The notes beneath the pieces are model-generated. The model saw only the letters and a program-made list of their open reading frames with translations. It had not been told where the DNA came from and ran no database searches. The translations under genes were made by a program, and so were the position numbers. This document shows positions 1 to 14,367 of a DNA stretch of 64,000 nt, piece after piece. The DNA is from Cyclobacteriaceae bacterium (GTDB lineage Bacteria > Bacteroidota > Bacteroidia > Cytophagales > Cyclobacteriaceae): positions 7,872 to 71,871 of the forward strand of contig JBKCVO010000066.1 in NCBI GenBank assembly GCA_046317775.1, written 5' to 3'. How positions within the stretch are numbered: position 1 is the first letter of the stretch; every line of letters begins with the position of its first letter.

Positions 1-107
1 TAAAGGAAAATGCACGCAAGGGTGGCACAGTGATACTTCTGGATAACTGTGATGAATTTAAAAATGACTGTACCAAATATATAAGGTATGAAATGGTGAG
101 CCGTTAG
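1..107 (+). CDS. 3' end of a hypothetical protein (partial, runs off the window)
   Basis: Open frame 3..107 (KENARKGGTVILLDNCDEFKNDCTKYIRYEMVSR*), followed by the same post-stop module as the other island genes. Confidence 0.55.
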   Translation, partial: KENARKGGTVILLDNCDEFKNDCTKYIRYEMVSR

Positions 108-120
108 AAGTAACTCCCTA

Positions 121-357
121 TTTATTTCTTTGCAGATCCTCCTAGGAACTCTGCGTGACACGCTACTTTACGCCAACCACCAATCCTGCCCATCCTGCAA
201 AACCTGATTCAGACAATTACAACAACACTTTTTTTGGAGGTGTGGGAGGGAAGTACGAAATTTGAACAAAGAGCCAACATAGATGTAAGTGAAACATCCG
301 CAAGTTTTGTATGCCAAGTTTCGCAGCAAAGATGTGCATACACTAATGTTGGAGGTA
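121..357 (+). repeat. Composite intergenic element, copy 1 (modules A+B+C)
   Basis: A = tttatttctttgcaga..ctctgcgtgacacgctactttac (121-171); B = aatcctgcccatcct..cctgattcagaca (182-215); C = tttttttggaggtgtgggagggaagtacgaaatttgaacaaagag...gatgtgcatacactaatGTTGGAGGT (GTT at 348). Confidence 0.85.
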
Positions 358-394
358 AATCATTTGACAGACACCAAGACCAATAATTATACAA

Positions 395-1024
395 ATGAGA
401 AAATTGATTTTAATGACATATTTAATTACAACTACTATGTTTAACATTTTTGGACAAGGAAAAGATAAATCCGAAAAGGAATTTAATAAAATTAAGTCAA
501 GAATATTTCCTGTAGTAAAAGTCGAGACTAGTGGAGAAAGTGGAAAGACTATGGAGTTTACAGCTGAGAACCAACCCGTATTCAAGAAAATAGCTGGAGA
601 CCTGTTATGCTTTTATGGAATAGACAAAGGAGATAATTTCGTTCTTTTAACAAAGAGTCAAATTCCAAGTTCTATATCAATGGACGACCTTGATAACATT
701 GCAAAGGAAAATTTATTAGAAGAAGTTCAGAGGAATTTAAAAATACATAAAACGGACTTTGGCGGACTTGGATTTACGTGTGGCGGCAATCATGAAGCTG
801 CACTTATTCTGCTACCTGAAATTTGGGGTGTCCTAATTGAAAAATTAGGTGAAAACATAGTATTTGGTGTGCCTGCCAAAGACATGAGCGTTTTTGTGAA
901 CGCTGACCAAACAGACAGCGTAAGTAAATTGCAAGAAATGATTAACGATATTCACAAAGACGGTAGCCGGCTCCTCAGCAAAAAATTGTTTAAATATAAA
1001 GCCGGACAAATTGAAGTGAACTAA
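395..1024 (+). CDS. Hypothetical protein, DUF1444-like, with signal peptide
   Basis: 209-aa ORF; hydrophobic N-terminus ending FG-Q; FTCGGNHEAALILLPEIW and VFGVPAKD segments resemble DUF1444-type proteins. Confidence 0.6.
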   Translation: MRKLILMTYLITTTMFNIFGQGKDKSEKEFNKIKSRIFPVVKVETSGESGKTMEFTAENQPVFKKIAGDLLCFYGIDKGDNFVLLTKSQIPSSISMDDLDNIAKENLLEEVQRNLKIHKTDFGGLGFTCGGNHEAALILLPEIWGVLIEKLGENIVFGVPAKDMSVFVNADQTDSVSKLQEMINDIHKDGSRLLSKKLFKYKAGQIEVN

Positions 1025-1090
1025 ACATGAACTACTCGTCTGGCACGGAAGTTAGAGGCTGTGTAAAAATCAAAAATCTCCCCGCTGCCA

Positions 1091-1170
1091 TTTTTATGTA
1101 TTTCTTCGCAGAGCCTCCTCCCAGGAACTCTGCGTGACACGCTACTTTACACTAAAAACCAATCCTGCCC
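1091..1170 (+). repeat. Composite element, copy 2 (module A + start of B)
   Basis: tatttcttcgcagagcctcctcccaggaactctgcgtgacacgctactttacactaaaaaccaatcctgccc aligns with copy 1. Confidence 0.85.
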
Positions 1171-1176
1171 GCTAGC

Positions 1177-1983
1177 GTGATGGACAAGCGAATATCCAAA
1201 ATAAAGAATGACGTGCAAGACAGAAAATCTGTTGCTTGGAAAAAACTCTGCGATTATGTTGACAAGGTTGCTATAGAAAACTATGACGAATTTTCCCCGC
1301 TAGAGGAACTTGGAGAAGAGTTGTTTGCTCAAATTCATACTTTGCCCGAGACAATCTCAAAACTCACAAAAGTTAAAAAGGTTTGGCTTTACGGCAGTAA
1401 ACTGAAGCGGATTCCACCGGAAATTGGACAGATGGAAGCACTTGAATATTTTGACCCATACACTTCATACGACCTGCATTGGTTTCCTTACGAAATTACA
1501 AAGTGCAAAAACCTTAAAGACAGTAGAGTAAGCACAAGAATATTGTATGGCAATTGGAAAAATAGAATGGGATTCCCTCGTTTAACTCATAATCCCGTTC
1601 GGTATTCAGGCGATACTTTGAATTGCAGTGTTTGTGGCAAGACTATAACTTATGAGCAAACAAATCAACTTTGGATTTCATTGAGGGTTGGAACGGATGT
1701 ATTACCTCTTTTGACAAATCTATGTTCAAAGGAATGTGAAGGTAAATTACCGACACCACCCAAAGACTACATACAATTTGCGCATAAAGGCGGTGCCGAA
1801 TTAGTACAACCTCCTGACGAAGATGAACTGTATGAAGTAGAAATGAAGAAAGAAGAGCATGAACAAGTTGAGGATGTAACAGTAATTAGTCAACCGGACA
1901 TTAACGAAGCTCCTTTAGACAATCCTACTGTAAAGAAAGGATTTTCAATGTTAAAGTTAATTAGAAAAATATGGGAGCAATAG
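1177..1983 (+). CDS. Leucine-rich-repeat-like protein with Cys cluster
   Basis: LRR-like LPETISKLTKVKKVWLYGSKLKRIPPEIGQMEALEYF; CSVC...CSKEC; acidic C-terminal tail. Confidence 0.65.
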   Translation: MMDKRISKIKNDVQDRKSVAWKKLCDYVDKVAIENYDEFSPLEELGEELFAQIHTLPETISKLTKVKKVWLYGSKLKRIPPEIGQMEALEYFDPYTSYDLHWFPYEITKCKNLKDSRVSTRILYGNWKNRMGFPRLTHNPVRYSGDTLNCSVCGKTITYEQTNQLWISLRVGTDVLPLLTNLCSKECEGKLPTPPKDYIQFAHKGGAELVQPPDEDELYEVEMKKEEHEQVEDVTVISQPDINEAPLDNPTVKKGFSMLKLIRKIWEQ

Positions 1984-2101
1984 AGTAAGTAAAATTCTTT
2001 CAAAAAAAATCTCTCTCTTTTGTAACCTTTCTCAAAAACCTTTGTAATCGTAGCATCAAAATACAACATGAGGTAGCAACTCTATTAAAAACAGAAACTA
2101 G

Positions 2102-3304
2102 ATGAAAAAAATAGTAACAATAATTTTAACCGTATGGAGTTTGGGGACATTTGCTCAAACGACTTCAAAAATTGGTAATTCATCACCCAACTTGGTATTT
2201 GAAAAAATAATCAACTTCAATCAAAATAAGGCAACCTTAGCCGATTTTAAAGGCAAAGTTGTTGTATTAGATTTTTGGGCTACTTGGTGCAGCCCCTGTA
2301 TAAAATCCCTACCCGAATTAGAAGCATTGCAAACTAAGTATCAATCTGATTTGCAGGTTATAACAATCACAAGTGACCCTGCCGAAAGAATTGAAAAGTT
2401 TTTAAGTAAAAAAGCGCTGAAGTTACCGGTTGTAATTGATGAACAGGGAAAATTAGCCACAGTTTTTCCACATCGTACTATTCCTCATACTATTGTTATT
2501 GACAAATCCGGTATAGTGAGAGCAATAACAAGTTCATCACAGATAACTGAAGAAATAATTAACAAAGTTATCAATGGTCAAGAAGTCAACATTACAGAAA
2601 AGAAAGAAGTAATGGATTTTGATCCTTCCAAACCTTTATCAGGCAACGAAAATTTTACATACCAAATTACCATTACACCATTTCAAGAAGGATACCCTTC
2701 ATTTTCAAACATTCATACGGGCGAAGGCTTTTATAAAAACAGACGAATTTATGCTACAAACCTTGGTCCCAAATCCTTATTTGAAATAGCCTATCAATTT
2801 CCTGTCTCCATCAGAACCATCGTAGAAGTAAAAGATTTCAATAAACTGAAATGGAATAAAGACAATGCAGTTTGTTTTGAATTAACTGTTCCTGATAAAT
2901 TGTCGGAACAGAGATTTGAAATAATGAAACAGCATTTGGATCTATACTTTGATTATAAAGCAGTAACAGAAGAAAGGCTAAGAAAAGTTATGGTGCTTAG
3001 ACAACTAAAAGATAGTCCGAAAATCGTATTAACAAAAAGTTCGGATAAGACAGAAGCTTCCGCAAGTTATAGTGGAAAGGGCTTGTCTATGAAAAATTCG
3101 CTTGTAAGCAAATTGGCAGAATTTCTTGAAAGCCAACTTGATATACCAGTTGTAGATGATTCGAATCTAATTGAAAAATATGATGTAGAGATAGCTTGGT
3201 ATAATGAAAATCCTCAACAGATACATCAAGAACTCAAAAAAGTAGGGCTTGAATTAGTATCTGAAGATCGAATGATTAAAGTTTTAGTCATCAAAGACAA
3301 ATAA
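2102..3304 (+). CDS. TlpA/redoxin-domain protein with additional C-terminal domain (DUF3738-like)
   Basis: Signal peptide; VVVLDFWATWCSPC thioredoxin-like motif. Confidence 0.8.
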   Translation: MKKIVTIILTVWSLGTFAQTTSKIGNSSPNLVFEKIINFNQNKATLADFKGKVVVLDFWATWCSPCIKSLPELEALQTKYQSDLQVITITSDPAERIEKFLSKKALKLPVVIDEQGKLATVFPHRTIPHTIVIDKSGIVRAITSSSQITEEIINKVINGQEVNITEKKEVMDFDPSKPLSGNENFTYQITITPFQEGYPSFSNIHTGEGFYKNRRIYATNLGPKSLFEIAYQFPVSIRTIVEVKDFNKLKWNKDNAVCFELTVPDKLSEQRFEIMKQHLDLYFDYKAVTEERLRKVMVLRQLKDSPKIVLTKSSDKTEASASYSGKGLSMKNSLVSKLAEFLESQLDIPVVDDSNLIEKYDVEIAWYNENPQQIHQELKKVGLELVSEDRMIKVLVIKDK

Positions 3305-3317
3305 AACACAAGTGCTT

Positions 3318-3474
3318 CGATTATGTTTGGGAAGGGACGGGCTACGAGATCACATCCAAGGAATAGGTATATCCATCATGAAGAAATACATTTGTCATTA
3401 AGCAGAGCCGTATGGAGACTTTCACGTACGGTTCCGTGAGAACCTAAGGCTGAAACTCCCTGGGGTGACTCGAC
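3318..3474 (+). mobile_element. 5'-truncated group II intron remnant (domains V-VI, class D/IIB-like)
   Basis: GAGCCGTATG..CACGTACGGTTC (3405-3434) is a domain V-like helix with the AGC triad, about 4 nt shorter than usual; followed by a domain VI-like stem ending GTGACTCGAC. Left boundary approximate. Confidence 0.8.
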
Positions 3475-3497
3475 TGGCGCACATTTGACTAAACGAA

Positions 3498-4714
3498 ATG
3501 AATAAAATTCTAACACTATTACTAGTTTTTACATGGGGTGCCTCTTCATCTCAAACTAAATTCAATTCGACCATAGAGTTCACCGATGATTTGACAAAAT
3601 TTCAAAGTTTGTCAAATTTCAAAAACACATTACAAAATGTTGAAATTATGGCGCTTGGAGAAAATACTCATGGGCTTGGAGAAGTGTTTACCGCAAAAAT
3701 TGAATTGGTCAAATTTTTACATGAAAAGTTAGGCTTTGATTTGATTCTATTTGAATCAGGATATGGAGACGCAGCAATGGCTTGGGAAAAATTAGATGCT
3801 CTATCAGCCAAAGAATTTACAAGTATTTTTAGCTCAAACTTTTATTATAATTCAGAGGAAATTGAAAAACTGGTAGATTACGTAAAATCAAAGGAGGGTA
3901 AGTTAAAAATACAAGGTTTCGATTGCCAACCACAACAAAATTATCTAATAAAACGAATGACCGAAATAGCTCAGCGAATAGATTCCATATTAGCTAAATC
4001 AGTTGCAGTAGAAATGAAAAAATTTAACAACCTTTATCAATTTGAGAACGACAAAGACACAATTTCATTCAATAAACAACGAGATAATTTTATTAACTTT
4101 TTGCACAAGTACAACGATTTTGTAATTAAAACAATACTGAATTATTAAATTCAGGAGTGACAAAAAATGAAATAAGTGCTTTAAAAAAATCAAACGAGAT
4201 ATTCATAAAAACGTATTCTACAATTAAAATTGGAGAATTGATGAGTTGGCCTTTGTCGGCAAATAGTAGAGATAAGGCACTATTTGAAATCGTAAAATCG
4301 TTCAAAGACGAATACCCTGAATTAAAAATTATTATTTGGGCACAAAACAGCCATATTGAAAATAAGCCAAAGCCCAATTATACTGTAAATTGGATGGGGC
4401 ATTATCTTAAGAATACTTTTGACGATAAATATTATTCAATTGGGACGGTTGTTTATAGTGGAAAAAACTTAACCTACAATGGAACTTTCGATTTTGAGCA
4501 CAAAGACACCAATCATCTTGCATATCATCTTAACCGATTTGGAAAAGAAAAATTTGTGATAGACTTAAGAAAATACAACAAAAATGATTTTACCAAAGAA
4601 CTTCTTTTAGGAATGGAAAGCAATGGAAATATGGCAGAATTCGTTGCAAAAGACAGATTTGATGGCCTGCTTTTTGTTAAGTATAGTGGTGTTCCCAAGT
4701 TGATAAAAAAATAA
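3498..4714 (+). pseudogene. Erythromycin esterase family protein, frameshifted
   Basis: MALGENTHG..LFESG in 3498..4148 and IIIWAQNSHI..YYSIG in 4157..4714; adding one A in the AAAA at 4128-4131 joins them into a 405-aa ORF. Confidence 0.8.
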
Positions 4715-4727
4715 AACACATTATGCC

Positions 4728-4926
4728 TTTATTTCTTCGCAGTCTCCTACTAAGGACTCTGCGTGACACGCTACTTTACACTAACAACAAAACCTGCCCA
4801 TCCTAAAATCTTGCATATCCTGATTCAGACAGCGTGCAGTCTACACATTTCGCAATCCGCTCCGCCCATTAACTATTAACAACTTTTTTTGGAGGAGTGG
4901 AGCGGAAGAGCGAGATTTGAACAAAT
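4728..4926 (+). repeat. Composite element, copy 3 (A+B+left part of C)
   Basis: tttatttcttcgcag..ctctgcgtgacacgctactttacactaac; cctgcccatcctaaaatc..cctgattcagaca; tttttttggaggagtggagcggaagagcgagatttgaacaaa. Confidence 0.85.
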
Positions 4927-5016
4927 GCACGAAAATTAATCACGCGTACATTTTAATGGAACCATGTGCTTATACAACTGGTAATAATACCAGTGCAAAA
5001 ATTATTGTAAGATTTA

Positions 5017-5967
5017 ATGACAACACTTATCACGAAAAGACACCCTATTAAGTTTTATTTGGTTTTAGTTTTTGCGTTTCTATTTCTTTGCGGGTTAGGC
5101 ACGTTGTTAATGTTCGTTGGCATTGACCTTTTACAAAAGGAACAACATGCCACTAAAGACTATTTATCACCTGTTTTCAGTTTTCTGTTTTACTTTCTGG
5201 CAGTTTCAATGGTTTACATTTACTGGAAAATGTCACCAATAATTACCATCGACAAGCATACCATCGTTTTTGGAACACAAACATTTTATTTAAAGAACAT
5301 TAAAGATGTTAGACTTACAGGAAAGATGCCATTCCGTTATTACTTCATGACATTTCCAATGGAAGGAACTGCAATAACTTTCAATGACGGAACAGAAATA
5401 CTTTTATTTGATGATATGTATTCTAATAGTTGGGAAATAAAATCATTTCTAGAGCAGACAGTTATCAATAAACAAGAATACAAACCAAAGTTGATAGAAA
5501 GTGTGGTTAGAAATGTGCCATATCGAGATGAAGATGTGTTTAAAGGAAATCAATTCACAAGCCTAAGAGGAATTTCGCTTTGGGGAGTTATTGGTTTTTT
5601 TATTATTATGTTGTTTAGTAAAGGAAATCCGCCTATTGCGTTATTTGTATTTTTGGGAGTATTCAGTACTTTTTGGTTTATCCTGAGTTCATGGATGATG
5701 CACTACTTTGTAGTGACAAATGATTTCTTAATTATTAAAAATCATAATTTTTTATGGATGACTAAAATTTATCCACTCTCAGAAGTTAAGGAGATTGTTT
5801 ATGAAACACAAGAAAAGCAACCAAACTCGATGAGAGTGATAACAAAAGATTTTAAGAATAAATTGTATCGGGCAGGGACGTTGAGAGACAGTACTTGGTT
5901 GGACATGAAGAAAGAACTAGAAAGAAATAAAATAAAGGTTAGAAACGAGTGTATTTTTGAAGACTAG
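5017..5967 (+). CDS. Hypothetical membrane protein (two TM-pair plus soluble-domain modules)
   Basis: 316-aa ORF with two hydrophobic helix pairs, each followed by a beta-rich PH-like segment. Confidence 0.7.
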   Translation: MTTLITKRHPIKFYLVLVFAFLFLCGLGTLLMFVGIDLLQKEQHATKDYLSPVFSFLFYFLAVSMVYIYWKMSPIITIDKHTIVFGTQTFYLKNIKDVRLTGKMPFRYYFMTFPMEGTAITFNDGTEILLFDDMYSNSWEIKSFLEQTVINKQEYKPKLIESVVRNVPYRDEDVFKGNQFTSLRGISLWGVIGFFIIMLFSKGNPPIALFVFLGVFSTFWFILSSWMMHYFVVTNDFLIIKNHNFLWMTKIYPLSEVKEIVYETQEKQPNSMRVITKDFKNKLYRAGTLRDSTWLDMKKELERNKIKVRNECIFED

Positions 5968-6012
5968 CTGAGCTGTTCGCCTTACACGTAGAGGCTTGGC
6001 CGCAAAGCCATA

Positions 6013-6025
6013 TTTATTTCTTCGC
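6013..6025 (+). repeat. Left end of module A only
   Basis: tttatttcttcgc matches the start of module A, directly after gccata. Confidence 0.5.
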
Positions 6026-6113
6026 GGGGGTAGGCGGGATTGCTAGCTTCGATTGAAATACGCTGCTTCCGTTTAGTCTATCCAGAATCAGAAATTCATA
6101 AATTTGCGATCAC

Positions 6114-6554
6114 ATGAAGAACTGGGTAGTACTATTATTCCTGATTTCAGCTTTCACAGCGTCCGGGCAGGTTAACAAATCAGCATTGTTTGGTAGATGG
6201 ATTTGCACAAACAAGGACAGCGCCTATTACACGAGCAAGTATATTGTGTTTTACAGCGACACCACTTTTATTCGTAAAAGTAATCAGTGTGAATTTGTCA
6301 CTTGGGAAATCAACGCAGAAAAGCTTTATATTATGACGTGGACTGAGTGCCTTCCTGATGGAAAGGTTCATATGAGCTTTTATTTTTCAAAACCTCGGCT
6401 TCAGCTAAACTTAAAGAAGGTGCGGAGAAAGAAGATTATTGAATTGGTAAGAGGGAAGGAGGTAATTGAACAATTTAAAATAATAGAGTTCAGCGAACAG
6501 CGGGTGGACAAAGATTCACAGGTTATTAAAATCTTAAAGCTAAAGCGGATTTGA
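6114..6554 (+). CDS. Hypothetical secreted protein
   Basis: 146-aa ORF; signal peptide ending ASG-Q; TAAATTTG (-7-like box) at 6099-6106. Confidence 0.65.
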   Translation: MKNWVVLLFLISAFTASGQVNKSALFGRWICTNKDSAYYTSKYIVFYSDTTFIRKSNQCEFVTWEINAEKLYIMTWTECLPDGKVHMSFYFSKPRLQLNLKKVRRKKIIELVRGKEVIEQFKIIEFSEQRVDKDSQVIKILKLKRI

Positions 6555-6873
6555 AATTTTCGTTTTTCTTCCTCAAGCACTGACACAATCCGCAGAAACA
6601 CGCGTTTTGATTTACACACTCTGACTCCGTTAGGCGTAAAGACTCCTCCAAGGTGTCAGATGCTTTTTCTTCTTTTTATCCTTGTTTGCTTAGTTCTATA
6701 GCCGTCTCACACCTGCTTAGCGTTTCACAAACCGAGAATTCAGCGTATATGCACAGCCGCTGCGCAAGGGTGAAACAGAGATAATCTGCTTTGCTCAATA
6801 ATTTTTCTGACTGAACTGTATCTTTTCGGTGACTTTGCCATTTTAGTATGTAAAGAACGCAAACTGCTAAAAA

Positions 6874-8112
6874 ATGAAGAAACTCCTATTTGTTCTACTT
6901 ATTATTTTGGGGGCTTGCGAGAGCCAAAACCCATTCCCATATCTCCCTTACCAGCAGCAAAACACTTCAGAGGTAGCCTATGTCAAATTGGCGAAATCAA
7001 TCGCTACCAATTCCAAAGGGGTTATAGCCAATGGACTGAATTATGTGGAGCTAGAGGTTTTGGCTTTTAATAAGTTGGACATTGGTGTGCCGTTGTATGA
7101 TTCAAAGAATGATATAATCGAAGTGCAAACAAATGGAAAGAACTTTCAACTGAGGTACCCCTTTCGATTTAGTACCACAGAAAAGGGCAGCTATTCATTT
7201 CGGTTGAAACCCAACTCCATTCCTGTCCGCGATGTCAATATTGAAATAACTGCGATCGAGCCTGTTCTATTTCGCCCCACAGTACTTCCTGTGATTTTTC
7301 ACTATTTTAATCATACAGCAAAGCCCTTATCAAATTCTCAAAAAGATTCGGTGTCAAATTATCTGTCAAAGTTAGTGGGATGGTCCAACAAGGATTTCAG
7401 TAACTTGTCTGGATCAATAGATCCGAATGCAAGTGACACTGGCATTCAACTGCAAATGGCAAAGAACGATATTCAAGGTGCTGCATTAACATGGGCGGGC
7501 GTTAACTTTATTGAAACGGGCGGCACTTCATTTCAATCAACGAAAGATTTTGAGGATTATACCTGGCAAAATTGCTTTTGGCCTCCGAAGAAGTACATAA
7601 ATGTATGGGTTGCGTTAGCTCCCTACTTTGATCCGAAATTAAACGGCTTTAGCTGGGCGTACTTTCCCGACTTCATCCAAGGATCAAGTGCCTATCCACC
7701 GGGTCTTTATGGTGTGATGTTACATCAGAGAAGTGCCTTCTCGTCTTTATTATCTCACGAGATAGGTCATATGCTAAATTTGTTTCATGTATTTGGCGAC
7801 TGCACCAGAGATGCTGATGAATGTGCAGACACATGGAGTTATTATAGGACAGTTTATGACGATCAAAGTAAATTTTCGATCGAGAAAACGAGCTGCTCTT
7901 CAGAGAGGTTTATTTCAACTAACTTGATGGACTATGGACCATCCTGGAATAATACCTTCACGTTACAGCAGGCTCTTCTTATTCAACAAACCTTAAAAGA
8001 ATGTTCATTCTTGCCAACCAAACGAAATGGGTATATACATGGGCGAGCCTTTGAAGATGCCGAAAGACCAACGAAAGCAATGGTTTCAGACAAAACGAAA
8101 TTGGTGCTGTAA
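6874..8112 (+). CDS. M43-like zinc metallopeptidase lipoprotein
   Basis: Lipobox LGAC; HEIGHMLNLFH zinc motif; NLMDY Met-turn. Confidence 0.85.
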   Translation: MKKLLFVLLIILGACESQNPFPYLPYQQQNTSEVAYVKLAKSIATNSKGVIANGLNYVELEVLAFNKLDIGVPLYDSKNDIIEVQTNGKNFQLRYPFRFSTTEKGSYSFRLKPNSIPVRDVNIEITAIEPVLFRPTVLPVIFHYFNHTAKPLSNSQKDSVSNYLSKLVGWSNKDFSNLSGSIDPNASDTGIQLQMAKNDIQGAALTWAGVNFIETGGTSFQSTKDFEDYTWQNCFWPPKKYINVWVALAPYFDPKLNGFSWAYFPDFIQGSSAYPPGLYGVMLHQRSAFSSLLSHEIGHMLNLFHVFGDCTRDADECADTWSYYRTVYDDQSKFSIEKTSCSSERFISTNLMDYGPSWNNTFTLQQALLIQQTLKECSFLPTKRNGYIHGRAFEDAERPTKAMVSDKTKLVL

Positions 8113-8237
8113 TATTCGCGTTTACATAAAGCTGGAATATAAAAAGCTAGCAATCTGCAACCAGCACCCAATATCAGCCTCTGATCGCTGTCCAAGCTAT
8201 CCTTAGTCCGCGATTAAGCATCCCCAAATTTCTCCAA

Positions 8238-8443
8238 TGACACTTTACCTAACACATCCCTTTTCACTTTAACCATCATCCTGCCCATCCTAAAATCCTA
8301 AAATCCTGATTCAGACAATTACGACAACACTTTTTTGGGAGGAGTGGAAGAGAAGCACGAAATTTGAACAAAGAGTCAGCGGATGTAAGTGAAATATCCG
8401 CAAGTTTCACAGTAAAAGATGCGCGTATCCTATGTTGGCGGTT
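8238..8443 (+). repeat. Composite element, copy 4 (degenerate A tail + B + full C)
   Basis: tgacactttacctaaca; atcctgcccatcctaaaatcctaaaatcctgattcagaca; ttttttgggaggagtggaagagaagcacgaaatttgaacaaagag...gatgcgcgtatcctatGTTGGCGGT (GTT at 8434). Confidence 0.85.
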
Positions 8444-8538
8444 ATGGTAAAATAACACGCTAAAAATGCTAAAACACTTTAAACCTTTGGGAAAATAAAT
8501 TATCTAAGGGTTGTGTTAAACTAAATGTCAGAATAATT

Positions 8539-9609
8539 ATGAAGTCGTCTACAATTCTTTTATTGCTGTTACTATCAATTTCGAGTTGTAGTAAAAATGA
8601 TGATGTTGTTCAACCTACAACATCAGAATCTATGTATTTCCCTTCCAATACAAATACTACTTGGGAAACGAAACCGCTTTCAAGTTTAGGTTGGAATCAA
8701 AACGCAATCCAACCGCTGAAAGATTTTCTTACGCAAAAAAACACAAAATCATTTATGATTCTTGTAAATGGAAGAATTGTAATGGAAGAATATTTTAATG
8801 GTCATTCTTCAAACACTACTTGGGAATGGAACAGTGCAGGTAAAACCTTAGTTGCAACTACAACGGGAATCGCACAACAAGAAGGACTATTGAACATTAA
8901 CAACAAAGCATCTGATTATTTGGGAACGGAATGGACGAGTATGCCCTTGGCAAAAGAAAACTTAATTTCCGTAAAAGATTTACTAATAATGACAGTAGGC
9001 AATGATGATACAAAACAATATGTTGTTAAAGCCAACTTAACGTATGTTGCAGACGCAGGAACGCGGTGGGCGTACAGCAATATTTTTCAAAAATTAACCG
9101 ATGTTGTTGCCGGTGCAAGCAATAAACCTTTTGAAACATATTTTAATGAGAAATTAAAAAACAAAATTGGAATAGATGGATTTTGGGAGTTTGGAACAAT
9201 CTTTACCATATACCATAGCACCACCAGAAGTATGGCAAGGTTTGGTCTTATGGCATTGGCGAAAGGAAAATGGAATAACGAACAAATTATAAATGAGACT
9301 TTTTTTAATGAAAGCATTTCAACCTCTCAAAATATCAATCCTTCTTATGGATATTTATGGTGGTTAAATGGAAAAACTAGTTTTATGATTCCGGGTGAGC
9401 AAACAGTTTATCAGGGATACTTGATTCCAAATGCACCTGCTGATATGTATTCGGCAATGGGAGCGAATGACCAACGAATTTATGTAATACCAAGTAAAAA
9501 AATGGTAATTATAAGAATGGGAGATGCGTCTGACCCTGCAAACCCAAATTTTGCGGTTTCCGGTTTTGACAACGAACTTTGGGGCAAAATAAATGCTGTC
9601 ATAAATTAA
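8539..9609 (+). CDS. Serine hydrolase (class C beta-lactamase-like family) lipoprotein
   Basis: Lipobox ISSC; SAGK (SxxK); YSN motif; YGYLWWLN. Confidence 0.85.
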   Translation: MKSSTILLLLLLSISSCSKNDDVVQPTTSESMYFPSNTNTTWETKPLSSLGWNQNAIQPLKDFLTQKNTKSFMILVNGRIVMEEYFNGHSSNTTWEWNSAGKTLVATTTGIAQQEGLLNINNKASDYLGTEWTSMPLAKENLISVKDLLIMTVGNDDTKQYVVKANLTYVADAGTRWAYSNIFQKLTDVVAGASNKPFETYFNEKLKNKIGIDGFWEFGTIFTIYHSTTRSMARFGLMALAKGKWNNEQIINETFFNESISTSQNINPSYGYLWWLNGKTSFMIPGEQTVYQGYLIPNAPADMYSAMGANDQRIYVIPSKKMVIIRMGDASDPANPNFAVSGFDNELWGKINAVIN

Positions 9610-9827
9610 AGAAGCCTACTAAGCCTCTGCACTGTCAAAGAAGAACTTCGTCTCCGGGTCAGAATTTCTATGGAGTGCAGAAATAAAATACGTGTAAAAT
9701 CGATCTCGAATGTGACTCATACTTAAACTTTCATTTAAGGTAAATTATTTACCTACTGTTTTAAAAAAGAAATTTGTTTTCTAAAGTATCTGCTATACAT
9801 ACGACTTTGCGTTAGCGGCAGTATACT

Positions 9828-10310
9828 TTACAGTCGCCTTTTGGGTCTTGGCTTCGTACTGTCAACAATGGTTTTAATAGCCTTTTGAACCTGCTTATCC
9901 AAATCCTTTAATTTGTTGATGCTGTGGATCACATTCCTTTTCTTACCAAGAGTCAAACCGTCAAAAATCTCTTTGAGCGCTTTATCCTGTTCTAAAATGG
10001 TCTCAAGTACTTCAGGCATTTCTACACCCAATGGATTAGGATCTTCCTTTAGAGAAAAGTTAACTTTTTTACCTAAAGTTTTATCAAGCGCTTTTAGGTT
10101 TTTGGTCGAAAGAATAATAAAAAAATCACCTTCGCCTAAATGGTTTAACCCACACTGAAATGAAACGAGTTTATCAAGTGTGCAAATAAAACGAGTATGC
10201 CTCTTATTTTTAAATTTGTTCACAATGTCCGATTCAATTTTCAAATAAAAATAGCCACCCTTTCTCTTTTCGAGTTGCTTAATTATTTGTTCGCCTTTGT
10301 AAGTCTTCAT
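9828..10310 (-). CDS. DUF1905 / YdeI-OmpD-associated family protein
   Basis: GEGDFFIILS..DPNPLGVEMPEVL..LTLGKKRNVIHSINKLK pattern. Confidence 0.75.
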   Translation of the reverse strand: MKTYKGEQIIKQLEKRKGGYFYLKIESDIVNKFKNKRHTRFICTLDKLVSFQCGLNHLGEGDFFIILSTKNLKALDKTLGKKVNFSLKEDPNPLGVEMPEVLETILEQDKALKEIFDGLTLGKKRNVIHSINKLKDLDKQVQKAIKTIVDSTKPRPKRRL

Positions 10311-10553
10311 TTTAATTCAATGCACGTTTTTAATTTATGGAGATTATATAGATACAAAGAGTGAGTCCCATCATGCCCGATAGATCAGGCAACAGAAGAC
10401 TCCTTTTTTTAGCGTTCAAACCACAAATTTATGTTTCTTTTTTCTGACGAAATAGGGTTAAGTAAAAACGTCTTGCAACACAAAACTCCAAGTCCCAAGT
10501 CCTAAGCCCCAACTCCAAGTCCTAGTTCCCAATACGCGTTTTGTTAAGATTTT

Positions 10554-10680
10554 ATGACAAGACTTTTTTTGGAGGTGTGGGAGGGAAGAACGAGATTTGG
10601 TATAACAAAGAGCAATCGACTATAAGAGAAATAAGCGCAAGTTTTTTGGAAAACATGCGCATATGCTAATGTTGGTGGTC
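10554..10680 (+). repeat. Composite element, copy 5 (module C)
   Basis: tttttttggaggtgtgggagggaagaacgagatttgg...catgcgcatatgctaatGTTGGTGGT (GTT at 10671). Confidence 0.85.
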
Positions 10681-10731
10681 ATTGTAAGAAGACCTACAAA
10701 AATATAAAGCCGACCAAGAACAGAGAAGGAA

Positions 10732-11169
10732 ATGGAAATAAAAAAACTTAATTCAGACAGTTTAACAGACTTCAAATCTTTAATAGAAATTTTCAAAGAG
10801 GTTTTTGAAAATGATGAGCCTATTGCTAATGACGAGCATTTAGGAAAATTGCTATCTAACCCTGACTTTTTTGTGTTTGTTGTAATGACTAATAGTAAAG
10901 TGGTAGGCGGACTTACAATTTATGTACTGCATAGATACTATGGCACAAAACCGATTGCATATATTTATGACGTGGGAGTTAGCCACGACTACCAAGGACA
11001 AGGATTAGGCAAAGCACTCATAGCCACAGCGTGTAATTTCTGCAAAAAGAATGACTTTGAAGATGCTTATGTAGAAGCGGAAAGTGACGACATTTACGCA
11101 GTGAATTTTTATAGAAAGACCAAATTTAGCTCTGAACTAAAAGCAATACACTTTACTTATGACCTTTGA
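10732..11169 (+). CDS. GNAT N-acetyltransferase (AAC(3)-I-like subgroup)
   Basis: YIYDVGVSHDYQGQGLGKALI acetyl-CoA motif; YVEAESDD..AVNFY. Confidence 0.8.
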   Translation: MEIKKLNSDSLTDFKSLIEIFKEVFENDEPIANDEHLGKLLSNPDFFVFVVMTNSKVVGGLTIYVLHRYYGTKPIAYIYDVGVSHDYQGQGLGKALIATACNFCKKNDFEDAYVEAESDDIYAVNFYRKTKFSSELKAIHFTYDL

Positions 11170-11238
11170 GGCAAACAATGATAAAAAAACCGAAACCGTT
11201 ATCGGTCATTTTACCGATTAACGAATAAGCATTAACGC

Positions 11239-12582
11239 TTAACTGCCCGCCATCCTCACTCTCCAATTCGCGGGATACAAGTTGTTGAGGCGGTTGCCGA
11301 GCAGATTCACCCAGCCCAGTGGCGTCTTTTGATACGTCACCAACGCAAAACCTTTGCGGCCTTCACCGAGCAAAGGTGTCTCCTTACGCAAATAAGCGAG
11401 CGCTTCCTCCAGCGATACATCGAGTTGAATAAATTGATCCGTTTGCAATTCGATGGAAAGCGCAGCCGCATGTTCGGGAATAAACTTGTCGTGCTTCATC
11501 GTAGCAAGTGCCGTTCCTTTCGTGAGCACATTCAACTGCTGAGTCAGCCAATTGATTTCGGTAGCAAACTCCTCCGGCAACGCCACAATCAATTCATTCA
11601 ATTGAATCAACAGATGCGGATGTTGCAACCAATGGTTCAGTTGTTCCGCGGTCTTCTTCGCCAACAAAGGCAACACGTTCTTCGTGCGAAACACGGGTGG
11701 GGTAGTAGCCTCGCGCTTGCGCACCACCGCCATAAAAAATCCCTCGCCTTGTACAAGATGTGGATAACAATGATACCCCACCATGTTTCCCACCACCGAC
11801 TTGGTCACGCCCCACTTTGCATCCATCGTATGAGAAACAAATTCCACTTCTTTATTTTCGGCCAGCCACTTCAGGTTGCCTTCATTTTCAATGTCGTTGT
11901 ATGTACAGGTGGAGTAAATGAGTAAACCATTCTCTTTCAACGCAGGCCATACATCCGCCAAGATGCGCTGTTGCCGTTGCGAACAAAGCGTCACATTGTT
12001 CTCCGACCACTCCTGCATTGCATGTGGATCTTTGCGGAAAAGCCCTTCCCCTGAACAAGGAGCGTCTACCACCATCACATCAAAGTAGCCACTCAGTCGC
12101 TCAAAGTCTTTAGGGTCGTTGTTGCTCACCACCACATTCGCATGTCCCCACTTTTGTACATTCTCCGACAAGATGGAAGCGCGCGAGCGAATCACTTCAT
12201 TGCTCACCAGCAATGATTGTTCATTCATCAAACTCAACAGGTGGGTAGACTTCCCTCCGGGGGCCGCACATAAGTCCAGCACACGCAACGAACCGGTGGC
12301 ATCAGTAGCTTGTGTAAATGCTTGCTCAATCAACATCGAACTTGCCTCTTGCACATAATAAGCGCCCGCATGCAGCAGAGGATCTAAAGTAAAAACAGGG
12401 CGTTCCGGCAAATAATAGCCGTGAGTCGTCCAGGGTATTTTGGTAAATGCAGGTTGGTATCGCTTTCGCGGATTGGCACGAATACTAACAGGCGAAGGCT
12501 GCGCATGAGCCGCTTGCAGGGCAGGCCATTGATCCGGCAGCGCAGATTGCATTCTGTTGACAAAAGCTTCCGGAAAGTGCAT
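11239..12582 (-). CDS. RsmB/NOP/RsmF-family rRNA cytosine-C5 methyltransferase
   Basis: YYVQEASSM, VLDLCAAPGGKSTHL, DAPCSGEG, YSTCT motifs. Confidence 0.9.
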   Translation of the reverse strand: MHFPEAFVNRMQSALPDQWPALQAAHAQPSPVSIRANPRKRYQPAFTKIPWTTHGYYLPERPVFTLDPLLHAGAYYVQEASSMLIEQAFTQATDATGSLRVLDLCAAPGGKSTHLLSLMNEQSLLVSNEVIRSRASILSENVQKWGHANVVVSNNDPKDFERLSGYFDVMVVDAPCSGEGLFRKDPHAMQEWSENNVTLCSQRQQRILADVWPALKENGLLIYSTCTYNDIENEGNLKWLAENKEVEFVSHTMDAKWGVTKSVVGNMVGYHCYPHLVQGEGFFMAVVRKREATTPPVFRTKNVLPLLAKKTAEQLNHWLQHPHLLIQLNELIVALPEEFATEINWLTQQLNVLTKGTALATMKHDKFIPEHAAALSIELQTDQFIQLDVSLEEALAYLRKETPLLGEGRKGFALVTYQKTPLGWVNLLGNRLNNLYPANWRVRMAGS

Positions 12583-12658
12583 CGGTCAAAAATATCAGAT
12601 ACACACCTGTAAAGCAACATCTGTGAAGGTATTTGACTAATTTTGAATTTGTTATACT

Positions 12659-13936
12659 ATGGAAACAATTCACGCAAACAATCCCCGGTTGAAGTCGTGG
12701 GTAGAAGTACCCGCACATTCCGACTTCCCCATTCAAAATTTACCTTTCGGGATATTCAAAACACGGTATCTCACCTCCGTAGCGGGCGTGGCCATCGGAA
12801 AGCATGTGCTCGATCTTGTCTACTTGCACGAAAATGGTTTCTTCGATGGACTCGGTTTGCCCGCAGGCATATTTAACCAGCCGTTCTTAAACGACTTCAT
12901 GGCGTTAGGTCGCACGAAGACGAGAATGGTGCGTGAGCGCGTGTCCGAATTACTGCAACACGACAACGATGAATTGAAAGACAACGTAGCCGCACGCGAG
13001 TTGGCGCTCATTCCGATGGAAGAAGTACAAATGCAGATGCCGGTGCGCATACCTAACTACACCGACTTCTATAGCAGCGAAGAGCACGCCACCAATGTGG
13101 GCACACTCTTCCGCGATCCGAAGAATGCGTTGTTGCCTAACTGGAAACACTTGCCGGTAGGGTATCATGGTCGTGCTTCGAGCATTGTTGTTTCGGGCAC
13201 ACCCATCCATCGCCCGAAAGGGCAAATCAAACCACCCGATGCAGAGTTGCCGTTGTTTTGTCCTTCGAAGAAAATGGACTTTGAATTAGAGATGGCGTTC
13301 ATCACCTGCACTGATACCAAGTTGGGCACCAGCGTTTCCGCGAAAGCAGCAGAAGATCATATCTTCGGATTTGTCTTGTTCAACGATTGGAGTGCACGTG
13401 ATATTCAAAATTGGGAGTATGTTCCCTTGGGCCCATTTCTGGGGAAGAATTTCGGTTCCACCATCTCACCGTGGATTGTGACACTCGATGCGCTTGAACC
13501 GTTTCGTATGAAAGGTCCGGAGCAGTTCCCGCATGTATTGCCCTATTTAGCTACCGAAGGCGATCGCAACTTCGACATCACCTTAGAGGTGGCGATGCAG
13601 CCGGAGAAAGGAAGCGAGACAGTCGTGAGCCGCTCGAACTTTAAGTACATGTATTGGAATGTGTGTCAGCAGTTGGCGCACCATACGGTGAATGGCTGCA
13701 ATATTGAAGTTGGAGATTTGTATGCTTCAGGAACGATCAGCGGCCCTTCGCCCGGATCATTTGGTTCTTTGCTGGAACTGACGTGGAATGGCCAACGACC
13801 TTTGCATTTAAATGATGGTGCTGAGCGCAAATTTATAGAAGATGGCGACACCGTCATCATGCGCGGCCACTGCGAGAAAGAAGGTGTGCGCATAGGCTTT
13901 GGAGAATGTAAGGGTAAGATCATAGCTGCGGTTTAA
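12659..13936 (+). CDS. fahA: Fumarylacetoacetase
   Basis: SDFPIQNLPFG, YTDFYSSEEHATNVG, DFELEMAF, NDWSARDIQ, SGTISG motifs. Confidence 0.95.
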   Translation: METIHANNPRLKSWVEVPAHSDFPIQNLPFGIFKTRYLTSVAGVAIGKHVLDLVYLHENGFFDGLGLPAGIFNQPFLNDFMALGRTKTRMVRERVSELLQHDNDELKDNVAARELALIPMEEVQMQMPVRIPNYTDFYSSEEHATNVGTLFRDPKNALLPNWKHLPVGYHGRASSIVVSGTPIHRPKGQIKPPDAELPLFCPSKKMDFELEMAFITCTDTKLGTSVSAKAAEDHIFGFVLFNDWSARDIQNWEYVPLGPFLGKNFGSTISPWIVTLDALEPFRMKGPEQFPHVLPYLATEGDRNFDITLEVAMQPEKGSETVVSRSNFKYMYWNVCQQLAHHTVNGCNIEVGDLYASGTISGPSPGSFGSLLELTWNGQRPLHLNDGAERKFIEDGDTVIMRGHCEKEGVRIGFGECKGKIIAAV

Positions 13937-13949
13937 TATGCCTACGGAT

Positions 13950-14101
13950 GCCCCATCGGGGCTTCCTGTCTATAGGATTTAGTTTAAGAATATGCGTTGG
14001 ACTCCAGAGGAGTCTCCTTAAAACGATGTGCTAGTCAGGTGGCTCCTACGGAGCCAATTAAGTCAGATTGAGTTTCTATAAACAGGATGCTCCTTCGGAG
14101 C
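13950..14101. repeat. REPIN-like element (inverted REP pair with two internal hairpins); second copy at about 14204-14355
   Basis: gccccatcggggc-cctgtctatag ... ctataaacagg-gctccttcggagc; internal hairpins gactcc-aga-ggagtc and ggctcc-tac-ggagcc. Confidence 0.75.
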
Positions 14102-14113
14102 TTTGTTCAATAC

Positions 14114-14191
14114 ATGCTCGGCTACTGCGAGAAGGACGGAGTGCGTATTGGCTTTGGAGAATGTAAGGGGAAAATCATTGCTGCGGTTTAG
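14114..14191 (+). pseudogene. Orphan copy of the last 25 codons of fahA
   Basis: MLGYCEKDGVRIGFGECKGKIIAAV* versus MRGHCEKEGVRIGFGECKGKIIAAV*. Confidence 0.9.
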
Positions 14192-14367
14192 TACAATACG
14201 CTTGCCCCATCGGGGCTGCCTGTCTATAGAATTTAGTTTAAGAATATGCGTTGGACTCCGGAGGAGTCACCTGAAAACGATGTGTTAGTCAGGCTGCTCC
14301 TACGGAGCCAATGAAGCCGATTGATTTTCTATAAACAGGATGCTCCTTTGGAGCTTTAATCAATATA

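What the first reader, a model, noticed from the sequence alone, without database searches (positions are those of the whole stretch)
121..357. Composite ~240-bp A-B-C element that appears to replace cassette recombination sites
Seen: modules A (T-rich lead plus cgcagag/ctctgcg hairpin plus gtgacacgctactttac), B (atcctgcccatcct..gattcagaca) and C recur in the same order at 121, 1091, 4728, 8238 and 10554, whole or partial. Module A starts right after an inverse-core-like stub lacking its final AC: cccta|ttt (120), ctgcca|ttt (1090), tatgcc|ttt (4727), gccata|ttt (6012). Established: group IIC-attC introns insert at the equivalent bottom-strand GT^T position. Inference: fixed module order and a shared breakpoint point to one non-autonomous, site-specific element that enters at the inverse core and ends in a new core site. 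I do not recognise this as a described family.
Basis: partly seen in the sequence, partly recalled or inferred. Interest (0 to 1): 0.72.

Follow-up and report, generated by a model that had tools for sequence, protein, structure and literature searches.

The report
Mosaic repeat replacing integron attC sites
The repeated A-B-C block is real and sits where integron-type gene cassettes normally carry their recombination site, but it is a patchwork of independently shuffled short modules, one of them promoter-like, rather than one inserted mobile element.

Summary
Observation confirmed. Modules A, B and C recur in one order and one orientation at 121, 1091, 4728, 8238 and 10554, plus the A lead at 6013, only within the first 11 kb. 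Chance expectation is about 0.

The region is an integron-type cassette array in a Cyclobacteriaceae-like MAG. No integrase-like ORF was detected from 8 kb upstream to 53 kb downstream.

Homologues of two window cassettes lie elsewhere behind canonical ~130-nt attC sites. Their homology to the window begins exactly at G|TT, where module C ends (348, 8434). So the block does occupy the attC slot and does end in a core site. The same canonical attC family occurs inside related mosaic-bearing arrays, and A-type hairpins there are fused to truncated attC left arms.

It is not one element. Fifty-two related copies show 20 module combinations. B belongs to a multi-phylum heptad-repeat family that also flanks GxxExxY genes. 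C splits into C5 and C3. C5 is promoter-like: 48 of 51 copies precede a co-oriented ORF. C3 is conserved in sequence but not in structure. B-C5-C3 is co-inherited with the downstream gene, and junctions vary.

Best reading: an attC relic (A) plus a portable promoter-and-docking block (B-C5-C3). This is a new variant of a known kind. Function is untested.

The parts
116..120 (+).
   Evidence: Sequence read. It sits 9 nt after the stop codon of the upstream ORF. Its attC origin was not tested for this copy.
121..172 (+). Module A copy 1: T-rich lead 121-131, hairpin 132-154, conserved tail 149-171
   Evidence: DNA fold -6.0 kcal/mol, z -3.1. Homologous A/A2 hairpins in relatives are fused to attC left arms.
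182..215 (+). Module B copy 1: ATCC heptad repeats ending in CCTGATTCAGACA
   Evidence: It belongs to a multi-phylum repeat family.
228..264 (+). Module C5 copy 1: promoter-like block (TTTG, 20 nt, GAnATTTG)
   Evidence: In the wider family 48 of 51 C5 copies precede a co-oriented ORF start within 400 nt, median 110 nt.
265..356 (+). Module C3 copy 1: attC-like site (R''-like GCCAAC 273-278, R' core GTTGGAGGT 348-356). Cassette boundary lies between 348 and 349.
   Evidence: Inverted repeat 274-287 / 339-352. The bottom strand folds with a 7-bp R box, -10.8 kcal/mol, z -2.1. Homologues of the downstream cassette start at this GTT behind canonical attC sites.
1025..1059 (+). Reduced attC remnant of cassette 395-1024, ending in R'-like core GTTAGAGGC (1051-1059)
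   Evidence: Relatives carry a full ~130-nt attC starting CGCCAAC at this position.
1086..1170 (+). Copy 2: TGCCA stub (1086-1090), module A (1091-1150), first 10 nt of B (1161-1170), then truncated at the next ORF
   Evidence: Hairpin fold -9.9 kcal/mol, z -4.2.
3403..3480 (+). Group II intron domain V-VI remnant, sense strand, whose 3' end abuts the 5' boundary of the esterase cassette (3481 TGGCGCAC...)
   Evidence: Rfam RF00029, 39.3 bits against a gathering score of 40, E 6e-5. Boundary set by comparison with L166, caaacG|TTAGCAAACATTT.
4724..4831 (+). Copy 3: TGCC stub (4724-4727), module A (4728-4779), module B (4793-4831)
   Evidence: Esterase homologues have TGCTAAC, TGCCTAC or TGCTATC where the window has TGCC|TTTATTTC.
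4883..5003 (+). Copy 3: C5 (4883-4919) plus a diverged C3 without a GTT core, co-inherited with the downstream 316-aa ORF
   Evidence: L167 7300-7670 carries the same B-C5-C3div-ORF unit behind a different upstream gene.
5993..6025 (+). Terminator-like hairpin (5993-6009) followed by the A-type T-rich lead only (6013-6025)
8238..8442 (+). Copy 5: A-tail remnant (8238-8248), B (8278-8317), C5 (8330-8366), C3 with R' core GTTGGCGGT (8434-8442). Cassette boundary lies between 8434 and 8435.
   Evidence: Alignment A3 shows L168 and L169 have a canonical attC ending ...caaacG|ATAGCGATTATGG where the window and L167 have C3 ending ...cctatG|TTGGCGGTTATGG.
9811..9819 (+). R'-like core GTTAGCGGC at the end of the intergenic region after cassette 8539-9609
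10486..10679 (+). Copy 6: CCAAGTC-type heptad repeats (10486-10533), D-tail (10540-10562), C5 (10563-10599), C3 with R' core GTTGGTGGT (10671-10679)

Best explanation
The first 11 kb of the window is an integron-type gene-cassette array with no integrase nearby. In it, the folded attC sites that normally separate cassettes have largely been replaced by a polar mosaic of short modules. The mosaic has two halves with separate histories.

(1) Module A is a hairpin fused to a truncated left arm (R'' side) of a canonical attC. It is the relic of the upstream cassette's recombination site and stays with the upstream gene.

(2) B-C5-C3 is a portable block inherited together with the gene downstream of it.
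- B is a heptad-repeat module from a family found in many phyla. Its left edge is a recurrent recombination junction.
- C5 looks like a Bacteroidota promoter (TTTG, 20 nt, nAnnTTTG) pointing at the next gene.
- C3 is conserved in sequence rather than in structure. It carries two or three ATGCGCA boxes about 23 nt apart and ends in the core ...AATG|TTRGNGG. Cassettes of integron origin begin exactly at that G|TT.

Shown:
- the repeat and its module order;
- the independent assortment of the modules;
- the identity of the cassette boundary with a canonical attC R' boundary;
- the coexistence of canonical attC sites and the mosaic in sister arrays;
- the polarity towards downstream ORFs.

Inferred:
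- C5 drives transcription of the downstream cassette, in the manner of the outward promoters of attC-targeting introns and of promoter-bearing ORF-less cassettes;
- C3 served, or still serves, as the integrase docking site;
- the 40-60-nt identical modules now let cassettes be reshuffled by homologous recombination even without an integrase.
For: - Repeats are real and confined to the array.
- The source contig has no tyrosine-recombinase-like ORF from -8 kb to +53 kb. The array sits at the same chromosomal locus in a relative, with different cassettes.
- The family occurs in 4 related MAGs, 3 metagenome assemblies and L167. There are 52 non-redundant C5 copies in 20 module combinations. An A-type hairpin lies upstream of 7, B of 27 and C3 downstream of 26.
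- 48 of 51 C5 copies are followed by a co-oriented ORF start, median 110 nt away.
- Homologues of window cassettes lie behind canonical attC sites, and homology starts at G|TT.
- A canonical attC folds at -28 kcal/mol with R and L boxes.
- The same attC family lies inside the mosaic arrays L155, L019, L006 and L014.
- The R'-like motif GTTRGNGGY has 5 of its 10 window hits in the array, all on the + strand and all intergenic.
- A/A2 hairpins are fused to attC left arms of 5 to 70 nt.
- B-C5-C3 is shared with the downstream ORF but not the upstream one, in the window against L167, in two separate cases.
- In L007 against L019, homology begins at the left edge of B. In L010 against L018, high identity drops near the C5/C3 boundary, about 47 nt into C3.
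- C3 shows no covariation: 69.8% of cells paired against 68.7% in shuffles.
Against: - No transcript or transcription-start data exist. The promoter reading rests on resemblance to a consensus recalled from the literature. The first base of the -7 box deviates, and the strict motif is not enriched in the window.
- No integrase was found, so C3 cannot be shown to be a substrate. Only copy 1 folds like an attC. The other copies have degenerate R'' boxes (AGC or ATC in place of AAC).
- The recombinase search was a crude motif regex on ORFs, not a profile search.
- All relatives are MAG or metagenome contigs, many of them short, so array ends and genome-wide distribution are unknown.
- High identity within modules could reflect recent spread of one element followed by rapid decay, which would look similar.
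Confidence: 0.5

Rival explanations
1. A-B-C is one non-autonomous, site-specific mobile element, or its footprint. It enters attC at the inverse core and brings a new core site, and is mobilised in trans by an unseen recombinase of the IS110/IS1111, RAYT or RT type.
For: - The block lies between an R''-like stub and an R' core.
- Three of the four window junctions end in GCC(A).
- Known attC-targeting elements insert near the 5' end of attC and carry outward promoters.
- A intact group II intron 3' end sits at another cassette boundary in the same array.
Against: - The modules assort independently, and A accompanies 7 of 52 C5 copies.
- B-C5-C3 travels with the downstream gene and A with the upstream one.
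- The left junction lies anywhere from 4 to 70 nt into the attC left arm.
- There are no TIRs and no end-to-end complementarity.
- No recombinase or RT is linked in about 40 loci.
- No Rfam intron domains lie inside the block.
- B alone occurs across phyla.
Confidence: 0.15
2. The block is a lineage-specific, unusually long but still functional attC. R'' lies at the start of A and R' at the end of C3, and the interior is a large variable terminal structure colonised by repeats.
For: - It occupies the same slot as a canonical attC.
- Chromosomal integrons often have homogeneous attC families, so a lack of covariation is not decisive.
- Copy 1 of C3 folds with an R box.
Against: - There is no significant complementarity between the left end of A and the right end of C3. 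Duplex energies fall within shuffles, fraction at or below observed 0.13-0.72.
- The AAC of R'' is missing at all four window junctions.
- C3 has its own R''-like box.
- Half of the C5 copies have no C3.
- The left and right halves are inherited separately.
Confidence: 0.12
3. B-C5-C3 is a dispersed 'mini-platform': a promoter plus an attI-like double-stranded site with direct integrase-binding boxes. Many copies lie inside the arrays, so that cassettes can be inserted and expressed at many positions.
For: - C3 is conserved in sequence but not in structure. It has 2-3 direct ATGCGCA boxes about 23 nt apart and a terminal G|TT at which cassettes begin.
- A promoter-like C5 lies immediately upstream.
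- In the window, each C3 that ends in a GTT core (348, 8434, 10671) is followed directly by a single cassette ORF.
Against: - No integrase is known for this lineage.
- The boxes do not resemble the terminal core.
- attI sites are known only next to intI.
- The same data fit a degenerate attC.
Confidence: 0.13
4. The modules are purely regulatory or structural intergenic repeats (BIME/REP-like or heptamer-repeat-like) with no relation to recombination. The coincidence with cassette boundaries arises because any intergenic element lies between cassettes.
For: - The organisation is a mosaic with strict polarity towards genes.
- Heptamer repeats in Bacteroidetes, cyanobacteria and Beggiatoaceae have been described upstream of genes (PMC4679880).
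- There is no structural covariation.
Against: - Homology to canonical-array cassettes starts at the exact GTT nucleotide in two independent cassettes.
- The conserved core after C3 matches the R' cores of the canonical attC family.
- A-type hairpins are physically fused to attC left arms.
Confidence: 0.1

Closest known systems
Integron attC sites and cassette arrays without a nearby integrase (CALIN; homogeneous attC families of sedentary chromosomal integrons)
   Same: - Co-oriented, mostly promoterless small ORFs.
- Cassette boundary at G|TT of a GTTRRRY-type core.
- The same cassettes occur elsewhere behind canonical attC sites.
- A canonical attC family is present in sister arrays.
   Different: - The block is not an imperfect palindrome, and R'' is truncated or degenerate.
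- There is no covariation or stable fold except in copy 1.
- It is 240-420 nt long and modular.
- It contains a promoter-like element.
Group IIC-attC introns and IS1111-attC insertion sequences (PMC3001079, which cites Tetu & Holmes 2008)
   Same: These are elements that sit between a cassette ORF and its attC, entering near the 5' end of attC and supplying an outward promoter for the next cassette. A group II intron 3' remnant lies at a cassette boundary in this very array.
   Different: - There is no ribozyme domain, RT or DEDD transposase in or near the block.
- The described elements lie antisense to the cassettes, whereas the block is polar in the sense direction.
- The junction position varies, and the modules assort independently.
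ORF-less / gene-less integron cassettes with promoter activity (PMC6557892; bioRxiv 10.1101/2023.11.21.568050)
   Same: Non-coding sequence inside cassette arrays that can transcribe downstream cassettes. The window stretch 1052-1170 looks like an ORF-less unit made mainly of the mosaic.
   Different: Those are ordinary cassettes bounded by normal attC sites. Here the promoter-like block is fused to, or replaces, the recombination site itself and is repeated with high identity.
attI site plus Pc promoter of an integron platform
   Same: A sequence-conserved site with direct repeats that ends in a GTT core next to a promoter, with cassettes starting at G|TT.
   Different: There are many copies inside arrays, no adjacent intI, and no evidence that the boxes bind an integrase.
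Bacterial interspersed mosaic elements (BIMEs/REP) and intergenic heptamer direct repeats (TAACTGA repeats, PMC4679880; cyanobacterial STRR, from my own knowledge)
   Same: Combinatorial mosaics of short intergenic motifs in a fixed relative order. The heptamer repeats are shared by Bacteroidetes, cyanobacteria and Beggiatoaceae, lie upstream of genes, and are suspected of a role in gene rearrangement.
   Different: The sequences are different. Here the mosaic is tied to cassette boundaries and attC relics. The B heptads end in a conserved ATTCAGACA terminus and form inverted pairs.

Membership tests
Integron attC site | Lies downstream of a cassette ORF, with the cassette boundary at G|TT of the R' core (GTTRRRY) | tested here: met
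   C3 ends in GTTGGAGGT (348), GTTGGCGGT (8434) and GTTGGTGGT (10671). Homologous cassettes behind canonical attC sites begin at the same nucleotide.
Integron attC site | Inverse core R'' (RYYYAAC) complementary to R' | tested here: not met
   At the start of A the AAC is absent in all four window copies. Within C3 only copy 1 has GCCAAC. The others have GTCAGC or GCAATC. The R-box helix is 52% paired across 15 family copies.
Integron attC site | Imperfect palindrome that folds as single-stranded DNA (R and L boxes), with structure conserved rather than sequence | tested here: not met
   RNAalifold predicts no consensus pairs. The named hairpin scores 69.8% paired against 68.7% in shuffles. 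Bottom-strand folds are -6 to -10.8 kcal/mol against -28 for a canonical site. There is no complementarity between the start of A and the end of C3.
Integron attC site | Recombined by an integron integrase | not testable with these tools
Complete integron | intI gene with attI and Pc adjacent to the array | tested here: not met
   No tyrosine-recombinase motif ORF was found in the window, in the 8 kb upstream (L001) or in about 40 related loci. This was a regex-level search only, and the contigs are fragmentary.
Group IIC-attC intron or its remnant | Ribozyme domains (D5/D6) and an RT ORF, inserted antisense in the attC bottom strand | tested here: not met
   Rfam E-value scan of 1-12000: the only intron hit is 3403-3474, outside the block and on the sense strand. 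There is no RT nearby.
IS1111-attC / IS110 family element | DEDD transposase, or a non-autonomous copy with defined ends and a structured non-coding RNA | tested here: inconclusive
   The loci were not screened for a DEDD transposase. The ORF lists and the Pfam hits on record for L001-L005 show none. C3 shows no conserved structure. The ends are variable. No profile search for bridge- or seek-RNA was possible.
MITE | Terminal inverted repeats and target-site duplication flanking the whole unit | tested here: not met
   No inverted repeat joins the ends of the block. The flanks show no duplication. Module B on its own does form inverted pairs elsewhere.
BIME/REP-like mosaic intergenic repeats | Combinatorial assortment of short motifs in a fixed relative order in intergenic DNA | tested here: met
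   There are 20 combinations among 52 copies, and the order is always A/F > B > D > C5 > C3/E/rcB. This is a likeness of organisation only. There is no sequence relationship to enterobacterial BIMEs.

The most novel reading that the evidence does not exclude
These Cytophagales arrays carry many internal copies of a 'mini-platform'. B-C5-C3 would be a portable promoter fused to an attI-like, double-stranded docking site. Integron cassettes would then be captured and expressed at many points of an array that has no resident integrase. The heptad module B, shared across phyla and flanking GxxExxY nuclease-family genes, would be the mobile or recombinogenic end that moves these units.
Probability: 0.15. 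Interest if true: 0.85.

Novelty: new variant of a known kind. Interest (0 to 1): 0.6.

Why it matters
Integrons are reported as rare in Bacteroidetes genomes (IntegronFinder 2.0 preprint). How genes far from the platform promoter are expressed, and what happens to arrays that lose their integrase, are open questions.

Here a Cyclobacteriaceae lineage shows cassette arrays in which canonical attC sites coexist with, and are replaced by, a conserved promoter-like mosaic. The same cassettes can be compared in both states. That makes three things directly testable:
- whether attC sites can be swapped for expression modules;
- whether recombination continues at the remaining core;
- whether short shared modules take over cassette shuffling by homologous recombination.

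The cross-phylum heptad element (module B) is a separate lead to an undescribed repeat family.

Tried and rejected
- Rfam, gathering threshold on the whole window and E-value mode on 1-12 kb. Nothing fell in the block, only the intron D5-D6 at 3403-3474. Rfam on 17 loci bearing B found no family for B.
- Exact module-A 23-mer in genome contigs gave 0 hits. A degenerate A pattern found only L007, L019 and one Ruminococcus MAG locus, not examined and probably a chance hit. The same pattern in metagenome contigs gave 0, because that collection does not hold the source samples.
- Near-identical contigs of the same population (L001-L005) gave no empty-site alleles.
- A crude attC detector (R''/R' plus L boxes) showed no enrichment in the array. 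This led me for a while to doubt any integron link, a view overturned by the cassette-homologue comparisons.
- C3 as a structured RNA or a folded attC was rejected for lack of a consensus structure and of covariation.
- The whole block as one giant hairpin was rejected.
- Reading D-C5-C3 as a small ORF was rejected by eye on the sequences printed, because indels and stop codons differ between copies.
- A sigma-70 promoter and terminator scan found no hit at C5. A itself is not a canonical terminator, though the A lead supplies the T-run after a hairpin at 5993-6009.
- A literature search for the B sequence returned only unrelated primer matches. GxxExxY papers were uninformative.
- A plasmid search with the block found no match.
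- Module A as the reverse complement of intron D5/D6 was rejected by inspection.

Full report
**Observation.** The sequence at 121-357 and its relatives are as described. Direct-repeat finding and alignment recover three blocks in one order on the + strand.
- The 23-nt tail of A is identical at 149, 1128 and 4757, with 0 matches expected.
- The T-rich lead of A recurs at 121, 1097, 4728 and 6013.
- B, made of ATCC heptads plus CCTGATTCAGACA, lies at 182, 4793 and 8278. A 10-nt start of B lies at 1161.
- C lies at 228, 4883, 8330 and 10563.
- All copies fall within the first 11 kb of the window.

**Context.** The window is contig JBKCYQ010000142.1 of MAG GCA_046315535.1. Near-identical contigs occur in several metagenomes.
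- Positions 1-11.2 kb hold about eleven small, unrelated ORFs, almost all on the + strand. They are wedged between PorP/SprF-CHU_C genes and core genes.
- No ORF with tyrosine-recombinase motifs lies in the window or in the 8 kb upstream.
- A related metagenome contig (L148) has the same two flanking core genes, at 86-88% nucleotide identity. An array with entirely different genes abuts them. The locus is therefore a fixed hypervariable site.

**The repeat is a family of modules, not one unit.**
- A degenerate pattern for the 5' part of C, here called C5, found 18 loci in four Cyclobacteriaceae, Flammeovirgaceae or Bacteroidetes MAGs. It found 12 more loci in three metagenome assemblies.
- Further modules appear in those loci. 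D is a hairpin just upstream of C5. F is a strong hairpin after stop codons. E is a B-like variant that forms C5-E-C5 tandems. There are also runs of heptamer repeats (ATTAACY, CCAAGTC, CATTGAC).
- The order is always A or F, then B, then heptads, then D, then C5. C5 is followed by C3, by E, by an inverted B with a GxxExxY gene, or by unique sequence.
- Fifty-two non-redundant C5 copies show 20 combinations. An A-type hairpin lies upstream of 7, B of 27, D of 17, and C3 follows 26. Fourteen of 42 B copies have no C5 downstream.

**Module B.**
Hits came from Chloroflexota, Poribacteria, cyanobacteria, many Bacteroidota, Beggiatoa, Desulfamplus and others.
- Of 141 hits, 107 carry at least two further ATCC heptads upstream, so most are not chance. 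About 35% of those have an inverted partner, usually 58-110 nt away.
- In the one inverted pair I inspected (L024), the GGATT units are conserved but the spacers between them are not complementary. That argues for repeated protein-binding sites rather than a hairpin.
- In five loci an inverted B and a direct B exactly bracket a 124-aa ORF. The L013 copy was scanned and matches TIGR04256, GxxExxY (1.6e-39); the others are 76-95% identical to it.
- No Rfam family and no paper containing the sequence was found.

**Module C5.**
- Forty-eight of 51 copies are followed within 400 nt, median 110 nt, by the start of a co-oriented ORF.
- The block reads TTTG, then 20 nt, then GAnATTTG. From my own knowledge, this resembles the Bacteroidetes -33 TTTG / -7 TAnnTTTG promoter apart from the first base of the -7 box.
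- Sequence identity between copies typically ends 3-7 nt after the final TTTG. That is where a transcription start would lie.
- This is resemblance only. The strict motif is not enriched in the window.

**Module C3.**
- It contains two or three ATGCGCA(A/T) boxes about 23 nt apart. The long forms are a duplication of one box.
- It ends in CTAATGTTRNNNG. RNAalifold finds no consensus structure. The obvious hairpin plus an R''/R' helix pairs no better than column shuffles, 69.8% against 68.7%.
- Only copy 1 (271-356) folds with a 7-bp R box.

**The integron link.**
- Homologues (76-90% aa) of the window cassette 395-1024 lie on other metagenome contigs with different neighbours. They are flanked by canonical ~130-nt attC sites: R'' YGCCAAC, a spacer, L'' TATTTGCG or TGTTTCTGC, then L', a spacer and R' GTTGKMGG. 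One of these sites folds at -28 kcal/mol as a classic attC hairpin.
- Homology to the window starts exactly at GTTGG(A/C)GGTAA, that is at 348-350, the last bases of C3.
- The serine-hydrolase cassette 8539-9609 gives the same result independently. L168 and L169 have a canonical attC ending ...caaacG|ATAGCGATTATGGTAAAATAA. The window and L167 have B-C5-C3 ending ...cctatG|TTGGCGGTTATGGTAAAATAA.
- The esterase cassette (3498-4714) also occurs in a canonical array, L162.
- Its 5' boundary in the window is at 3481. It lies directly after a sense-strand group II intron D5-D6 remnant.
- The same canonical attC family is present inside the mosaic-bearing arrays L155, L019, L006 and L014, co-oriented with the mosaic.
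- In the window the R'-type motif GTTRGNGGY has 5 of its 10 hits in the array. All five are on the + strand and intergenic: 348, 1051, 8434, 9811 and 10671.
The block stands where an attC stands, and it ends in a core site.

**Module A and the 'stub'.**
- In relatives, A-type hairpins follow attC left arms of different lengths. These are R'' + L'' + about 45 nt in L014 and L145, and R'' + 5 nt in L153. In the window only 4-5 nt remain (TGCCA, TGCC).
- At 4727 the esterase homologues carry TGCTAAC, TGCCTAC or TGCTATC where the window has TGCC|TTTATTTC.
- At 6012 the GCC belongs to a terminator-like hairpin whose T-run is the A lead.
- A is best seen as a hairpin joined to a truncated attC left arm, with no single breakpoint.

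**Who travels with whom.**
- The window and L167 share [B-C5-C3 of the CCTATG type, then the serine hydrolase] behind different upstream genes (M43 peptidase against a pentapeptide protein).
- They also share [B-C5-diverged C3, then the 316-aa ORF] behind different upstream genes (esterase against serine hydrolase).
- In L007 against L019, homology of a 250-aa cassette begins at the first heptad of B and runs to the next mosaic.
- In L010 against L018, 92% identity extends about 47 nt past C5 and then drops within C3.
- A two-gene unit shared by L007 and L148 has tight boundaries with no mosaic at all.
- B-C5-C3 therefore belongs with the downstream gene and A with the upstream one. Junctions occur at several module edges as well as at G|TT.

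**Interpretation.** The best-supported account is an integron-derived array in which folded attC sites have been replaced.
- On the upstream side an attC relic remains (A).
- On the downstream side sits a portable block combining a promoter-like element with a sequence-conserved site that keeps the R' core.
- This is functionally analogous to what Léon and Roy showed for group IIC-attC introns and noted for IS1111-attC elements. Those elements sit between an ORF and its attC and supply an outward promoter to the next cassette (PMC3001079). It is also analogous to promoter-bearing ORF-less cassettes (PMC6557892; bioRxiv 10.1101/2023.11.21.568050).
- It differs in having no ribozyme, RT or transposase, in being modular, and in being fused to the core site itself.
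- Promoter activity, integrase recognition of C3 and homologous-recombination shuffling at the modules are all inferences.
- I give this account 0.5. The single-element model gets 0.15, a long functional attC 0.12, an attI-like mini-platform 0.13 and purely regulatory repeats 0.10.

**Novelty.** I found no description of this mosaic or of module B. Integrons are reported as rare in Bacteroidetes. Intergenic heptamer repeats with the same phyletic spread are known, with unknown function (PMC4679880). I class the finding as a new variant of a known kind.

**Limits.**
- All comparison sequences are MAG or metagenome contigs.
- Recombinase detection was by motif regex only.
- No attC covariance model was available.
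- No expression data exist.

Noticed in passing
window 3403-3480: Group II intron domain V-VI remnant (RF00029, 39.3 bits against a gathering score of 40) on the sense strand. Its 3' end abuts the esterase cassette boundary at 3481. Described IIC-attC introns lie antisense. A homologous intron 3' end precedes the mosaic in L153.
   Followed up: partly
window 3498-4714: The erythromycin-esterase-family gene is split into two ORFs (216 aa and 185 aa) in the window and in L001. It is intact (405 aa) in the near-identical metagenome contig L003, so this is a population polymorphism or pseudogene.
   Followed up: partly
L013 4220-4673, L017 1640-2093, L007, L038, L092: A 124-aa GxxExxY-family ORF (L013 copy matches TIGR04256; the others 76-95% aa identical to it) is exactly bracketed by inverted copies of module B. 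This looks like a small mobile or selfish unit. Compact B/B palindromes without an ORF occur in Chloroflexota, Poribacteria, cyanobacteria and Proteobacteria.
   Followed up: partly
window 8539-9609: The serine-hydrolase (beta-lactamase-fold) cassette has 83-93% aa-identical homologues named by their sources as Flavobacterium, Maribacter and Microscillaceae. About 7,900 proteins score E <= 1e-40, which suggests wide horizontal spread.
   Followed up: partly
window 13858-14365: A tandem duplication of about 254 bp (repeat families D3, D5, D8; 86-91% identity) covers the 3' end of ORF 12659-13936 and the sequence downstream.
   Followed up: no
window 10486-10533 and 4868-4880; many related loci: Runs of heptamer repeats (CCAAGTC, ATTAACY, CATTGAC) lie between B and C5. 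They resemble cyanobacterial STRR repeats and the TAACTGA-type repeats reported in Bacteroidetes, cyanobacteria and Beggiatoaceae.
   Followed up: partly
L021 4069-5913 (- strand): A related array carries a retron-type reverse transcriptase (Ec67-like, 370 bits, below the curated cut-off), so these arrays may hold anti-phage systems.
   Followed up: partly
L148 (reverse complement) 3547-6449 against window 11239-13936: The array's right-hand flank (two core genes) is conserved in a relative while all adjacent cassettes differ. The locus is a fixed insertion hotspot.
   Followed up: yes
L165 1568-1830 and 1-156: Another Bacteroidota contig carries, after the esterase gene, a ~190-nt repeated element followed by a ~65-nt attC-like site (CCCAAC...GTTGG). 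Its inverted arms (GCCGGGTCTCCTCC / GGAGGGACTCGGC) resemble the stem of module A. This suggests that A-like hairpins upstream of attC sites are more widespread.
   Followed up: partly
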